Positions 1 to 63,537 of a DNA stretch of 64,000 bases are shown one piece after another (position 1 is the first letter of the stretch; every line of letters begins with the position of its first letter). The position numbers and the translations under genes are program-made. The notes beneath the pieces are model-generated. The model worked only from the letters and a program-made list of their open reading frames with translations. It was not told where the DNA came from and did not search any database. The stretch is taken from NCBI GenBank assembly GCA_051362555.1, contig CM120640.1, positions 53,422,788 through 53,486,787 of the forward strand, read 5' to 3'. The stretch comes from Lingula anatina (Eukaryota > Animalia > Brachiopoda).

Positions 1-3000
1 TTTGCCATTATTACTGTCACACTCATTGACATCTGCAACGATAGGGATTGATTTTAGCAGCAGAGATTTAATGACAATGTAAAATATTTAAGGGAGTTGT
101 TTGTGGTGATCTATCACAATTCATCCCTATGAATCACGCTCGGCTATCACTTGGTTGTTGACTTAATAATCACATAAAACGATTTTTATAATAGCACACA
201 TATAAATAGTTTAAATGTATTACTCTTTAACCATAAAAAGCACTTATGTTCTTTATTCCTTTCACAATCAAAACATAACACACAATTTCTTACCAACACA
301 GGGTCCTCCCGGGGGCCCATGGAAGCCCTCACTGCAGACGCACTCAGTCCTACTGCTGCCCTCTTTTAGAGTTCTCGAGTTCAGAGGACAGGGTAAACAA
401 CTGTTTACATCAGCTTTGTATGTATTTATGGGGCATGCTGGAATGTAGGCCCTATAGCACGTAAGTTGTCACATAAACTAAATCAAAAATGCACATTCCA
501 AATATTTCTCAAATATTAAATAATGCTGTTAATTCTGCTTAACATTGCCGACAACCAACATTGCCAACAAATTGTCGGAGGTAATCAGCACAGACCCAGT
601 TGTTAAAATTTCAATATTAATTCTATCTGAAGAGCTTTTTTCTAGATCTTACATTCAAAATAGGTAATGATTTTTGTATTACTCACCACGGCACTGCGGC
701 GGGAATCCGTCCCATTCACCAGACTCTGCGCACGCCCGTTGGCTGCTCCCTCTAGCCAGATAGTAACCCTCATCACACTCATATACGCACACTCCATCGA
801 ACCGGTTGCTGCAAGACACAATGCGGCCGTTCTTTGGAGGATCTGATACGGGACAGGTGATCTCTGGAAGGGCAAAGAAACTGGTAAAGTCATCTTTTCG
901 TGGAATGTCGATGTAGAAGGAAGATTAACCTGTTAAATTCTATCAAATATGTAGTCTTGTGAAGATTCTTTTGTCTATGGCTACTTATATTTGTCTGGTC
1001 TTACCAGCCAATATTTCGTCTGCTTGCAGTCAGACTTCGTCGGGAATGAGGTTGTGATAGGTGTGACAACCTATCACCCCCTCTGGTGTGGTATTTTGTC
1101 AGATGATGATGAAGTCTGACTGTAAATTGTTGATTTAACAGTTGCCTCTCACCTTCACAAGGCCCACCAAGTGGTCCAGAATATCCCCTATCACAGAGAC
1201 ACATCTCTTTAGTCGAAGCTGCGGCCAGGAGGGTGTGAGAGTTTTCTGGACATGGGCTGCACTGACCACCATCACTTCGGCCAACCTTGTAGAAATCCTT
1301 TGGACAAGCTGTAAAAATTTGATGTTACATATACTTTTTTTATTACCATAACTAACTAACAGTGAAGCTTTGCCATTCGGTTTCAAGCGCGTTTTAATGT
1401 TAGCAGCCAACAGAAATTGATCTCAGATCATAATCATCAATAAAAGACCATTAAATTATTTCTGGATTTAGTTTGAGAGGTATCAACTAATAAAAATATA
1501 ATTTTGGAATTGCCAATTATATTGCAATGTATGGTAATTATATTATGACATTTAACTCTTGAGCCATATATTAGTAAGTTATCAGAATAAGACTATATAC
1601 ATATACTTATATACCCTGGCAAGAAGGGGCCTCTGAGTCCCAGGTTCCGTTGGCCAGACAAGTGATTTTGGGAACACCTTGCAATACATAACCCTCATGG
1701 CAGAGGAAGAAAGCACTTCTGCCAAACTGATGTCCATCATCGTCCCTTGACCCGTGGTTAGGTATACCAGGGTCAGGACATTCAATTGCTGTAATCAAAG
1801 TATTCATTTTCGATGATCAGTTCTAGCTTGATTTTCACTATCAACGCTGGTTTAATTCTTTAAAAAAACGCAAAATGTTGCCAAGTAACTTTCATTATAT
1901 ACTAGTCTACCAAGTTGGTTTAAAAGTATTTAATGGCAGAAAATTGGTATTTCAAATAATGTTATCTCTACAAAGGTTTTTAAAGAGGTCGAATAGATAG
2001 GACTGAATCAAATGTCTTTTCAGTCAACAATTCCCTTTTTAAAACTTGAATATTTTTTCACAATTTTTGCCAATGCTTCACTCGTTTTATAATGTTTATG
2101 TTTTTAAACTTTAATATCGTTTTAAGAGTCATATTCATTATTAATTTTTTATTGTATCGTATTATTCATGCATCGTTTCGTACTTGGGCCCAATTCGAAG
2201 TTTTGCCTTCATTCTAAAATTGGGTATCAACACATCAATAGATATAACTTTTATCAAAACTTAATTGTACCCTGGCAGACAGGAACAGTTCCGTTCCAGT
2301 TTTCGTCCTCCAAGCACACAAGTGATGAGTTCCCTAACAATGTAAATCCAGTGTCACATGAAAACGTCACTTGTGTCCGGGGTTCAACTTCCTTCACCAT
2401 CATCTGACCGTGATTTGGGGCGATAAGTTGTGGACACTTGATTTCTAGAGAAACAAAATGAAAAAAACTAAGTTTAACTCTCTAAGGACACTTAACCTCG
2501 ATGTAGACCTACATGTACATCTGGAGTTATCGCTGCTCGTTGTCTTTGGTGAGTTAGGTGCTTGAGGATTTGCAAGGTGAAAAATCAGTGTTTCTTGGTG
2601 GGGCAGTTCCGTGACAATCACATAAGTGTACATGTAACTATGTAAACTTATCTCTATTCATTGAAAAGGCACTTTGAATCTCATTTCAATGCCACACGAA
2701 TCAACTCACGAAGACACGAAGGATGCGAAGAGCTCCACTCTCCCGAGGCAAGACATCTCCGTCGTCTCGGCCCAACCAACTTGTATCCAGGGTTACATGT
2801 AAAAGTGACCTGATCTTCGTAAAAGTAGTCTTCTCCGTGGACTTGTCCAAGGCCTAGCGAACCAGGATGACCACACCAACGTTCTGAAAAATATCATATA
2901 ACAGCATTTTCAGCAAACCAACGAGGGGGTACATCTTCAGGAAGAATTTGGGCATAAAAAAGTGAATTTACCTTATAATACTGCTCTGTAGTTCCATTTA

Positions 3001-61100: not shown

Positions 61101-63537
61101 TAATTTTGTAGAAATCCTTCTTCGTTTTCTTTAAAGGTGTTGTTGTATTTTCTTTAAACGACTACGTACATTTTGTAAATTTAGACTCTAAAAACATCTC
61201 TTTCTAATTTATAGGAATTGTCTGTACTATGCCACAAGCCAACGAACATGTTCAGATTCTGAACCCTCAGAAGGGTTACGCCTTTGGCGAGCAGCTGGTC
61301 TATAGATGTGATGAGGGGTATGAAATAAGAGGCCCTGAAACACGTGTTTGCCAACAGGATCAAGAAACTACTGGAAAATTTTCTGGATTTAATCCACTAT
61401 GCGAAGGTAAAACTTTATCCTTTTCAATACATTCCCTTCAACTAATTATTTGTTTATGGTATGAAACAATTGTATATCATATGGGCTCAAGGCGAAAACA
61501 TGTTAAGAAGTCAATCCAAAAAATGCGATCCTTTTTTTAGTAAGCTATATTCCGGTATAATCCTCAGTTATAATATGACTTTTTCATTTAATTCTATGCA
61601 TTATTCTGTGTTAACTTTATTTAACCGTTTGCATTTCTTCACTGTACTATAAAGCATGCTTCATATTCTGACTCTTAGATAAAACACTGTGCCAAAGTTG
61701 TAGTACTCGCGTAAATGCGACGGCCTTCGTTGTTTTGGGTCGCTTTTTTGTCTCCTGCTTTGTTACGTTTTTTTATGATTAGTGGATGCTACGATCAATT
61801 AGTTTTCCAATGAAATGTTAAATCAAGTAACCACCTTGTTTAATGCTTTAACACAACTGAGGTACTCATTATTTCCAAAAATTTAATCGATGTACATGTA
61901 TTTATTCTTATTCTTTTTATGTTTTATCTATGTATAATTGTCCCATATTATGTTCATAGCTGTCAGTTGTGGAGAACCAGGTACCCCACAACACGGAGAG
62001 AGAGAAGGGAACTCCTTTAAGTTTGGTGATGTTGTGACGTACAAATGTAATAAAGGATATAAACTAGAGGGACAAAAGAGTCGACGCTGCATGGCTACAA
62101 AAACGTGGACTGGTAATGACCCAACGTGTGTAGGTATGTAATAGTTCTTTGTTCATAATCTAGGCATGTTTAGGATCGTGAAAATGCAAAACATTGGACA
62201 ATGCAAACTTGTCAATGAAATTCTTTTATACACAGTATGTGTTTTAATAATTTATGTCTTCGCTAAATACAAATTGAAACCATCATGTAAATAAAATTCA
62301 AAGACTAATCAAAAGCATATCATATTTTTTCAGAAATCAAATGTGATGAACCCCGTGTTCCAAAACATGGTGAGGTTATAGGCAGAAGAGTAACTTTTGC
62401 GTCCAAGGTCAGCTTTCAGTGCGACGCTGGCTACAACCTTGTAGGGAATGCTACTCTTGAATGTCTAGAGAGCGGCGAATGGAGTGCTCCATCCCCCACA
62501 TGTGAAGGTGTGCTGAAAACGAGTCTTTAGTGCAAACTGATAATGATTATTATAATTTATTTCATAATTGCAACCCTAGGTGTTGAAGTTTCTCAATTAA
62601 CAACAAAAGTCATTAGAATTTATACTATCGCCTTTGGTTGCAGTGCTCTTTGGCCAAACCGACATTTTTGCCAAACCAAAATTCCAGAAACAGACGTATA
62701 TAAATAAATTTTATATCTGAGAAGCAGGTTGCTTTTAACAGTTTTCATGTAATATCATTTATCGTGGCTATCAAAAGGATGGACCTAAAAGCTGACTATT
62801 AAATTGGTTGTCTTTTTAAGTCACTTTTCTTTTCTTTCTTACTATCCAAAAAAAAATTGCAAATCAGAATAATGCAGGTCAAAACTATCAACCTGTTTTG
62901 GTGTTTTAATATACCAGTAAAAAATAATCTACATGACCTTTTTCAGCTGCCATATGTGGTAATCCTGGTTCACCAGTAAATGGAGCCAAAGACGGTACCG
63001 TGTATTATTTCCCACATAATGTGACATACAGCTGTTTCAACGGCTACATACTACGCGGCGCCTCCAAATTGACGTGCCAGGCAGATGGAGTTTGGAGTGG
63101 TTCCGCGCCTACCTGCGAGGGTAACCTACCATGTCTTTGAAGAAAATGACAAAAATTAAACGTTTTTTTTTACCTTATTTACATAAATAAATGAATTTGA
63201 CATCGATCAATACTGTTAAACAATAATTTGATTTCCTTCCACACGCAGAGCTCATACTTCAGTAAAATTTAAAGTTTCTTTGGAAATAAGGTGCCTCTCT
63301 TCCTTTTTCACTTTTTCTTCTTACTTCATTTCCTTATTCCTTTGCGCAGTTTTTCTCCGTTTCTTGACCAATTTTTGTTTCTTTCAGCCTGTCCACTAAA
63401 CACCTATATGGCTGCTAATTCCCCAATATGTGTTCCATGTGCTGAGAACACCCACACCGTCACGGTGGCCAGTACCAGTGCTGAGCAGTGTGTGTGTAAC
63501 AAAGGGTATACTGGTCCGCCAGGTGGACCCTGTCAGG
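58155..63537 (+). CDS. Paralogue 6 (3'-partial): signal, propeptide RKER, Ala/Gly-rich hydrophobic helix, TSP1-EGF-CCP5-GCC...
   Basis: Exons 58155-58258 (MHRYIPAIVIAVCTLWMCSCVTA), 59062-59192, 59573-59705, 60045-60238, CCPs 60463-60639, 61215-61406, 61960-62133, 62334-62507, 62947-63120, GCC 63388-63537. The gene presumably continues beyond the window. Confidence 0.9.

What the first reader, a model, noticed from the sequence alone, without database searches (positions are those of the whole stretch)
1..63537. Cluster of six secreted proteins with a conserved CCP/GCC/EGF stalk and hypervariable, apparently protease-activated, membrane-active-looking heads
Seen: six paralogues share the same stalk order but differ strongly at the N-terminus. 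Spliced heads: P1 RHKR/GIFGGVFDFTDFVG; P3 acidic propiece then [31 protein letters not shown]4 [16 protein letters not shown]5 RHRR/Ser-Arg repeats then AWGKAGAIATGLAVVSGIAQIGVGIAGIV; P6 RKER/AAAAIAMGVAAGVQAIVSIAGMIMG. Each is followed by a charged helix, CxxxC, TSP1 and EGF. P2 has a different domain altogether. Known: the sequence signal-propeptide-furin site-hydrophobic segment-helix is the layout of class I viral fusogens, big defensins and many lytic peptide precursors, and TSP1/EGF/CCP modules are typical of complement proteins. Canonical SVEP1 has vWA, HYR and pentraxin domains, none of which were seen here. Inference: this may be an undescribed polymorphic-effector-like family (complement-like lytic, antimicrobial, adhesive or gamete-recognition) that automatic pipelines would label only SVEP1-like.
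Basis: partly seen in the sequence, partly recalled or inferred. Interest (0 to 1): 0.88.

Follow-up and report, generated by a model that had tools for sequence, protein, structure and literature searches.

The report
Brachiopod secreted rods with swappable tips
Six neighbouring genes of the brachiopod Lingula encode long, predicted secreted proteins with one shared complement- and SCUBE-like body but different front ends, which are likely unmasked by furin cutting and likely stick to cells, matrix or microbes rather than fuse membranes; relatives exist in an annelid worm.

Summary
The six genes are real. All six spliced models are open reading frames. They are not SVEP1: Pfam finds no vWA, HYR or pentraxin. 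The stalk is CCP-GCC-EGF followed by a SEA-fold domain homologous to the SCUBE spacer, usually with a furin loop. The family is old: Capitella has both the TSP1-type and the P2-type (DUF7023) head. A strict furin motif lies upstream of the TSP1 module in 9 of 11 members (1.8 expected), but directly before the tip only in P1 and P4 here; P3 has none. Long apolar tips occur in 5 of 10 members; others are short or charged. There is no membrane anchor, no heptad signal and no excess of allelic change in the heads. 'Fusogen' and 'polymorphic effector' are therefore unsupported. Best reading: an undescribed lophotrochozoan branch of short Polydom/SCUBE-like secreted tethers with furin-unmasked binding or assembly tips. 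An antimicrobial tip on a stalk stays open.

The parts
294..9277 (-). P1 (RefSeq XP_013394148.1): signal exon 9277-9201, head+helix+TSP1 exon 5163-4880, EGF, 5 CCP, GCC, CCP, GCC; the gene continues beyond the window start
5145..5156 (-). P1 strict furin motif RHKR directly before a short, weakly apolar and acidic tip
   Evidence: sequence; in frame with the RefSeq signal exon; hydropathy
10899..19229 (-). P2 (XP_013393617.1): signal, DUF7023 head, 8 CCP, GCC, CCP, GCC, Ca-EGF, CCP-like, SEA-like without basic loop, GCC
17823..18332 (-). P2 head exon: beta-rich DUF7023 domain, homologous to heads of another Lingula protein and two Capitella proteins
   Evidence: Pfam E 1.2e-9, above the curated cut-off; 29-35% identity to P0014, P0119, P0150, reached by 0 of 200 shuffles each
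22659..34929 (+). P3 (XP_013393808.1), 18 coding exons, 1079 aa: acidic propiece without furin motif, amphipathic apolar segment (about 23166-23225), helix, TSP1, EGF, full stalk
32468..33010 (+). P3 SEA-like (SCUBE-spacer-like) exon with polybasic loop
35775..43238 (-). P4 (XP_013394336.1 / XP_013394253.1): signal exon 43238-43162 with GC donor, head exon 42227-42042, TSP1+EGF exon 41498-41236, stalk ending after the SEA-like exon 36624-36031 (last exon placed approximately)
   Evidence: RNA joints 42227/43162 and 41498/42042 in X7, X8, X9
42137..42148 (-). P4 strict furin motif RVKR, followed by a short aromatic/aliphatic tip and an E/R-rich helix
   Evidence: sequence
43529..55855 (+). P5, 18 coding exons, 1192 aa; no database record met in my searches; head-to-head with P4 (start codons about 290 bases apart)
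   Evidence: open model; 14 of 17 introns seen in RNA; the signal exon 43529-43620 is inferred from phase, donor and read depth, and its joint was not listed
45995..46443 (+). P5 head exon: furin motif RHRR at 46059-46070, Ser/Arg linker encoded by a 48-base tandem repeat (46172-46337), Gly/Ala/Val/Ile segment from 46365
   Evidence: read depth about 130-165 at 46122-46347 in X7-X9
53325..53876 (+). P5 SEA-like (SCUBE-spacer-like) exon with polybasic furin loop
   Evidence: RNA joints on both sides; fold of the P6 equivalent
58155..63537 (+). P6 (XP_013391007.1): signal exon 58155-58258, head exon 59062-59192 (RKER at 59120-59131, then apolar segment), helix+TSP1, EGF, 5 CCP, GCC; the gene continues beyond the window end
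   Evidence: 533 of 534 residues identical to P0006; RNA depth and joints 57810/58154 and 58236/59060 in X9

Best explanation
These genes are the Lingula members of an old lophotrochozoan family of predicted secreted, Polydom/SCUBE-related rod proteins that likely work as surface tethers: furin likely removes a propeptide and bares a short tip, which would bind cells, matrix or microbes or drive self-assembly, while the SEA-like spacer likely holds the far end on a cell surface. Shown: gene structure, domain order, SEA-type fold and SCUBE-spacer homology, conserved basic motifs at both positions, three tip chemistries plus one globular replacement head, and RNA for P4-P6 in some samples only. 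Inferred: secretion (signal peptides judged by eye), cleavage, tethering by analogy with SCUBE1, and the binding or assembly role of the tip. The tips differ because old paralogues specialised, not because alleles diversify fast.
For: The module Ca-EGF, CCP-like, SEA-like, GCC aligns with SCUBE proteins (25% over 390 columns, pairwise E 2e-15; spacer alone hhalign probability 81%). In SCUBE1 the spacer tethers the protein to cell-surface heparan sulfate and holds a proposed furin site (PMC10214685, passages). The AlphaFold model gives this domain a beta-alpha-beta-beta-alpha-beta order with the basic run at the beta2-beta3 turn. It matches Trop2, SorCS2, Gpr126 and TMPRSS6 (Z 6.9-7.4, rmsd 2.8-3.9, 97-114 aligned; that these stretches are SEA-type is recalled). 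61 of 84 profile hits covering the loop carry R-X-K/R-R. The propeptide motif is present in 9 of 11 TSP1-type members against 1.84 expected. Nematostella has short Polydom-like proteins without vWA and pentraxin, with TSR or Ig add-ons, found in the mesoglea proteome and expressed in gland cells (PMC12549020, passages and supplement). Tips can be charged, short or replaced by a globular domain on the same stalk, which fits a variable binding end. [quoted passage not shown]
Against: No functional datum exists for any member. The SEA matches are below Z 8. The helix before CxxxC has no significant heptad pattern (1 of 11 at p<0.05), so self-assembly through a coiled coil is not supported. P2-type members lack the basic loop, and P3 and P6 lack a strict propeptide motif. 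Some relatives' tips look like cationic antimicrobial peptides (P0005, P0013, P0181). None of the tested accessions is in the 2026 Lingula shell proteome, and the 2015 shell 'SVEP1' is a different 8126-residue protein. The tissue of the expressing RNA runs is unknown.
Confidence: 0.5

Rival explanations
1. Antimicrobial tip on a stalk: furin unmasks a membrane-binding peptide that inserts into or traps microbes, and the CCP/EGF rod acts as an opsonin- or complement-like bridge to host cells.
For: The prepro-furin-tip layout is conserved. After its furin motif P0005 has a cationic amphipathic helix whose hydrophobic moment was reached by 0 of 2000 shuffles. P0013 and P0181 have alternating Arg/apolar tips. 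A stand-alone short protein with signal, Arg-rich tip, TSP1 and EGF-like end exists (P0183). The top fold match of the P2 head in two searches was the C-terminal part of a pore-forming protein (9uj0; Z 4.4, rmsd 4.9, 110 aligned; Foldseek E 0.53).
Against: In the window the tips are neutral or acidic. Only 1 of 8 post-furin segments tested beats the shuffles. No second cleavage site frees the tip from the 100-kDa body. The heads show no excess of allelic change. The 9uj0 match rests on a model of mean pLDDT 48 and was not recovered by a head profile search. There is no MACPF or protease domain.
Confidence: 0.22
2. Ordinary matrix paralogues: the heads are loosely constrained propeptide and linker sequence that drifted over a very long time, with no special tip function.
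For: Mean pairwise identity is 0.17 in heads against 0.37-0.56 elsewhere, and third codon positions are near saturation (28-35% identical in the CCP region). AlphaFold leaves residues 41-114 of P6 unstructured. P5 has a repeat-expanded Ser/Arg linker.
Against: The apolar segment ends 23-27 residues before CxxxC in several paralogues and aligns in register beyond composition for P3/P5 and P6/P0005 (2 of 21 pairs at p<=0.003). The furin motif is kept in the annelid member P0011. A low-confidence region from a 14-row alignment says little.
Confidence: 0.2
3. Gamete-recognition or allorecognition proteins whose heads give specificity.
For: Tandem cluster, variable heads, and expression in one of three RNA studies only (strong in X7-X9, faint in X4, absent in X1).
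Against: Alleles are nearly identical in the heads, the head classes predate the brachiopod-annelid split, and no tissue information links expression to gonad.
Confidence: 0.05
4. Class I fusogen-like cell-fusion proteins.
For: Signal, basic motif, Gly/Ala/Val/Ile segment and helix in order in P6 and P0007.
Against: No C-terminal membrane anchor (best 19-residue hydropathy in the last 60 residues 0.11-1.06 for six complete proteins; 1.65 for P4, inside its SEA-like domain). The helix is about 26 residues and runs into a disulfide-bonded TSP1. No heptad signal. Half of the members lack a long apolar tip.
Confidence: 0.03

Closest known systems
SVEP1/Polydom (RefSeq label of five of the six genes)
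   Same: Predicted secreted; CCP, GCC (Ephrin_rec_like) and EGF modules; internal basic site
   Different: No vWA, HYR or pentraxin, no long C-terminal CCP tail; about 940-1190 aa; TSP1-EGF or DUF7023 head
Short Polydom-like proteins of Nematostella (PMC12549020)
   Same: Expanded set lacking vWA and pentraxin, Sushi/EGF/TKE(GCC) core, extra TSR or other domains at the ends
   Different: Their defining core includes HYR, absent here; no furin-unmasked tip is mentioned in the passages read; sequences were not compared directly
SCUBE1-3 (PMC10214685)
   Same: Ca-EGF, spacer, cysteine-rich (GCC) order; spacer homologous, with a basic furin-type loop
   Different: One Ca-EGF rather than nine EGFs, at most one GCC exon after the spacer rather than three, no CUB; CCP rod and head added
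Big defensins (PMC7203481)
   Same: Prepropeptide with dibasic site, then a hydrophobic N-terminal part, then a disulfide-rich module
   Different: No beta-defensin domain; TSP1+EGF and an 800-900-residue stalk follow; the hydrophobic part is not conserved family-wide
Class I viral fusion proteins (recalled)
   Same: Basic cleavage motif near an apolar Gly/Ala-rich segment and a helix, in some members
   Different: No membrane anchor, no heptad repeats detected, tip absent or charged in half of the members

Membership tests
SVEP1/Polydom, canonical | N-terminal vWA domain | tested here: not met
   No vWA hit in Pfam scans of the full RefSeq proteins of P1, P2, P3, P4, P6
SVEP1/Polydom, canonical | HYR repeats and pentraxin domain | tested here: not met
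   No hit; HYR was detected in an unrelated hit scanned the same way (P0046)
SVEP1/Polydom, canonical | CCP, GCC (Ephrin_rec_like) and EGF modules | tested here: met
   6-8 Sushi, 2-3 Ephrin_rec_like, EGF_CA
Short Polydom-like proteins (Nematostella type) | Sushi-HYR-TKE core | tested here: not met
   Sushi and TKE/GCC present, HYR absent; definition from PMC12549020 passages
Short Polydom-like proteins (Nematostella type) | Orthology by sequence or tree | not tested
   No Nematostella sequence was in hand
SCUBE | Spacer region between EGFs and cysteine-rich motifs | tested here: met
   SEA-type fold of this region
SCUBE | Nine tandem EGFs, three CR motifs, C-terminal CUB | tested here: not met
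   One Ca-EGF before the spacer; no CUB hit, while CUB is found in P0045 and P0047
Class I viral fusogen | Cleavage site directly before a long apolar fusion peptide | tested here: inconclusive
   In the window the strict motif adjoins only short tips (P1, P4); the long apolar tips follow a weak motif (P6), a distant one (P5) or none (P3)
Class I viral fusogen | Heptad-repeat helices | tested here: not met
   a/d score significant in 1 of 11 (a crude test); single helix 112-137 in the P6 model
Class I viral fusogen | C-terminal transmembrane anchor | tested here: not met
   Hydropathy of the C-termini; model ends in EGF modules
Class I viral fusogen | Trimer formation | not tested
Big defensin | Propeptide ending in a dibasic site | tested here: met
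   9 of 11 TSP1-type members; 3 of 5 in the window
Big defensin | C-terminal six-cysteine beta-defensin domain | tested here: not met
   TSP1 and EGF follow the head; no defensin hit
Terminal complement / MACPF lytic proteins | MACPF domain | tested here: not met
   No hit in any full-length member scanned
Antimicrobial or lytic peptide precursors | Membrane permeabilisation by the mature peptide | not testable with these tools
   Needs synthetic peptides or recombinant fragments
Receptor domain of a pore-forming protein (P2 head) | Shared fold with the C-terminal part of 9uj0 | tested here: inconclusive
   Z 4.4, rmsd 4.9, 110 aligned, from a pLDDT 48 model; no sequence support
Lingula shell matrix proteins | Peptides in shell proteomes | tested here: inconclusive
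   Accessions of P1, P3, P6 and the XP_0133965 series are absent from the 2026 supplement, whose three Sushi proteins are other genes; the P2 and P4 accessions were not searched by name; the 2015 shell SVEP1 is 8126 aa

The most novel reading that the evidence does not exclude
An unrecognised lophotrochozoan defence family: a conserved complement-like rod, tethered to host surfaces by a cleavable SEA spacer, presents interchangeable furin-unmasked warheads (cationic helix, Arg-rich strand, apolar helix, or a globular domain akin to a pore-former's receptor module) that bind, trap or permeabilise microbes, in effect antimicrobial peptides on stalks.
Probability: 0.17. Interest if true: 0.8.

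Novelty: new variant of a known kind. Interest (0 to 1): 0.42.

Why it matters
A gene family shared by brachiopods and annelids is hidden under the automatic label 'SVEP1' (at least eleven Lingula genes: six here and five more distinct proteins among the search hits). It joins a SCUBE-type spacer to a CCP rod and to exchangeable, probably protease-unmasked tips, and it gives a predicted SEA fold for a spacer that a 2023 review says had no published structure. If the tips only mediate adhesion or assembly, this is a new matrix subfamily of interest to specialists. If they attack microbial membranes, it would be a new design of invertebrate immune effector, testable with a few peptides.

Tried and rejected
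No genome was held for the window, so the ends of P1 and P6 come from RefSeq proteins. My first by-eye idea that P1, P4 and P5 had broken heads was wrong: RefSeq and RNA joints gave in-frame exons. The look-up of sequencing runs listed no indexed RNA holder, only same-species raw-read runs. Both read-laying runs went to P4-P6, so P1-P3 splicing has no RNA check here. A guess that shell protein XP_013394109.2 was P2 was rejected: it is a 1605-aa lectin-domain protein. ESM Atlas gave only a generic TSP1 cluster at 0.77 for the P6 head and nothing usable for the P2 head. PDB sequence searches with the P2 head, the head profile and the spacer profile gave nothing significant. The viral fold library gave no match at E<=0.001 for the P2 head; the TSP1-type head was barely tested by fold search because CCPs filled the lists. 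A word search with head exons found three short proteins only. dN/dS between paralogues is not estimable because of saturation. Pfam found nothing in 14 intronic or intergenic ORFs. Earlier scan notes held nothing. Paper searches without a description of this family.
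Full report
Source and gene models. The window is AT-rich animal DNA with many cysteine-rich exons. The P3 head exon matched a Lingula anatina protein at 100%. [quoted passage not shown] No record for P5 came up. 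Models built from window coordinates are open throughout their coding parts, with AG/GT boundaries except a GC donor in P4; P4's last short exon is approximate. Orientation is P1-, P2-, P3+, P4-, P5+, P6+. P4 and P5 are head-to-head, with start codons about 290 bases apart. P1 and P6 run off the window.

RNA. Two read-laying runs covered 41000-60700 and 41150-47900. Runs X7, X8 and X9 (one study) cover P4 and P5 exons, and X7 and X9 cover P6. X4 is faint and X1 shows no exon depth. The joints listed include both P4 head introns and 14 of 17 P5 introns. The tables are cut and rows near simple repeats were dropped, so the joints on either side of the P5 head exon were not seen, though that exon is deeply covered. 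Tissues are not given.

Architecture. Pfam finds 6-8 Sushi, 2-3 Ephrin_rec_like (GCC), a Ca-binding EGF and weak TSP1 matches, and no vWA, HYR, pentraxin, CUB, MACPF or defensin domain. The order is signal, propiece, tip, charged helix, CxxxC, TSP1, EGF, 5 CCP, GCC, CCP, GCC, Ca-EGF, CCP-like, a 180-residue domain, GCC, EGF, EGF. P4 ends after the 180-residue domain. P2 replaces tip-to-EGF by DUF7023, has 8 CCP in front and lacks the terminal EGFs. Signal peptides were judged by eye; no predictor was run.

AlphaFold on P6 (14 rows, mean pLDDT 71.5) gives it a beta-alpha-beta-beta-alpha-beta order with the polybasic run at the beta2-beta3 turn. The structure search matched residues 788-966 to Trop2, SorCS2, Gpr126 and TMPRSS6 (Z 6.9-7.4, rmsd 2.8-3.9, 97-114 aligned). 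That these stretches are SEA-type is recalled, and Z under 8 is only moderate. The module from Ca-EGF to GCC aligns with SCUBE proteins (spacer alone probability 81%). A review states that the SCUBE1 spacer tethers the protein to heparan sulfate, holds a proposed furin site and had no published structure (PMC10214685, passages). A profile of the four window exons found 127 relatives at E<=0.001 among 1.84 billion representatives, mostly short fragments of unknown taxon. Of the 84 that cover the loop, 61 carry R-X-K/R-R.

Family and age. Full-length relatives are five more distinct Lingula proteins (P0005, P0009, P0013, P0014, P0181), four Capitella teleta proteins and three unnamed ones. In a tree of the CCP-like plus SEA-like region (19 rows; one SCUBE row dropped out for lack of a profile hit), the P2-type proteins of Lingula and Capitella group together (93/97) apart from the TSP1-type ones (97/95), and P4 groups with P0013 and P0181 (100/100). 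The P2-type heads are homologous across the two phyla (29-35% identity, 0 of 200 shuffles). Third codon positions between P3, P5 and P6 are 28-35% identical in the CCP region. The head types are old, not a recent burst.

The heads. Mean pairwise identity is 0.17 in the heads and 0.37-0.56 in the other regions. A strict furin motif lies between signal and CxxxC in 9 of 11 TSP1-type members with complete N-termini, against 1.84 expected from shuffles. Paralogues are not independent; three N-terminally incomplete proteins, the P2-type proteins and isoforms were left out. In the window the motif directly precedes the tip only in P1 and P4, lies about 100 residues upstream of it in P5, is minimal in P6 and is absent in P3. 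Long apolar segments occur in 5 of 10 members (P3, P5, P6, P0005, P0007). They end 23-27 residues before CxxxC, and two of 21 pairs align in register beyond composition. P1, P4 and P0011 have short tips; P0009, P0013 and P0181 have charged ones. Of eight post-furin segments only P0005 is more amphipathic than shuffles. The helix has no heptad signal (1 of 11). AlphaFold leaves the P6 head unstructured at low confidence and predicts one helix, 112-137, running into TSP1. No complete protein has a C-terminal anchor; P4's value of 1.65 falls in its SEA-like domain. Against RefSeq, P1, P3 and P6 differ at 11 residues in 2230, one of them in a head region. The read differences listed for P4 and P5 include several replacements in signal and propiece, but the list is a cut subset and allows no rate estimate.

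P2 head. DUF7023 is matched by 3 of 4 heads. The model is poor (pLDDT 48). Two fold searches ranked the C-terminal part of 9uj0, a pore-forming protein, first but weakly (Z 4.4, rmsd 4.9, 110 aligned; E 0.53), and a head profile did not recover it. This is a lead only.

Literature. Nematostella has short Polydom-like proteins lacking vWA and pentraxin, with TSR or Ig add-ons, in the mesoglea and in gland cells; their core includes HYR (PMC12549020, passages and one supplement file; one supplement was too large to read). In Lingula shell proteomes the tested accessions are absent and the shell 'SVEP1' is an 8126-residue protein (PMC13425148 and PMC4595640, passages and supplement rows). Big defensins use a furin-released hydrophobic domain for microbe-triggered assembly (PMC7203481, passages). 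Ten searches found no description of this family. Subscription journals are not covered, and the Lingula immune survey (Gerdol 2018) was seen only as a reference entry.

Mechanism and verdict. Most likely (0.5) these are secreted tethers: a furin cut bares a tip that binds or assembles, a CCP/GCC/EGF rod gives reach, and a SCUBE-like SEA spacer holds or releases the far end. Secretion, cleavage, tethering and tip function are all inferred. Rivals are an antimicrobial tip on a stalk (0.22), drifted propeptide without special function (0.2), gamete or self recognition (0.05) and fusogen (0.03). Oligomer state could not be tested. New variant of a known kind; interest 0.42.

Noticed in passing
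window 43238 (P4 start, - strand) and 43529 (P5 start, + strand): P4 and P5 are head-to-head with start codons about 290 bases apart, suggesting a shared bidirectional promoter; both are covered in the same RNA runs.
   Followed up: partly
window 43161-42228: First intron of P4 is a GC-AG intron, seen in RNA reads of three runs.
   Followed up: yes
window 33524-34000 (+), intron of P3: 159-aa ORF with a GIY-YIG domain (Pfam E 5e-6), likely a retroelement remnant (Penelope-like, recalled).
   Followed up: partly
window 49200-49460 and 15404-15658: Near-palindromic element of about 260 bases (97% complementary arms) in an intron of P5, with a 91-99% similar copy in an intron of P2; MITE-like; covered by reads in all four runs laid.
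   Followed up: partly
window 25582-25854 (+), intron of P3: 91-aa ORF that resembles the C-terminal end of an RTE-type LINE by recall; no Pfam hit.
   Followed up: partly
window 43847-43904, 45739-45827 and 50730-50810: Short stretches with deep read cover and many loose ends, typical of dispersed repeats in transcripts.
   Followed up: no
window 6243-6444 and 7105-7306: 202-base direct repeat, 77% identical, in the first intron of P1.
   Followed up: no
window 46172-46337: 48-base tandem repeat (about 3 copies) encodes the Ser/Arg linker in the P5 head.
   Followed up: yes
protein P0183 (unnamed record, 131 aa): Stand-alone short protein with signal-like start, Arg-rich tip, TSP1 and EGF-like end: the head module seems to exist without the stalk.
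   Followed up: partly
RefSeq XP_013396514-XP_013396521 (P0005, P0009, P0013, P0054): A second group of family members on one other Lingula scaffold, again mixing TSP1-type and DUF7023-type heads.
   Followed up: partly
window 41000-60700: RNA reads from the same species label are mostly 90-99% alike to the window, so the sampled population is notably divergent from this assembly.
   Followed up: no
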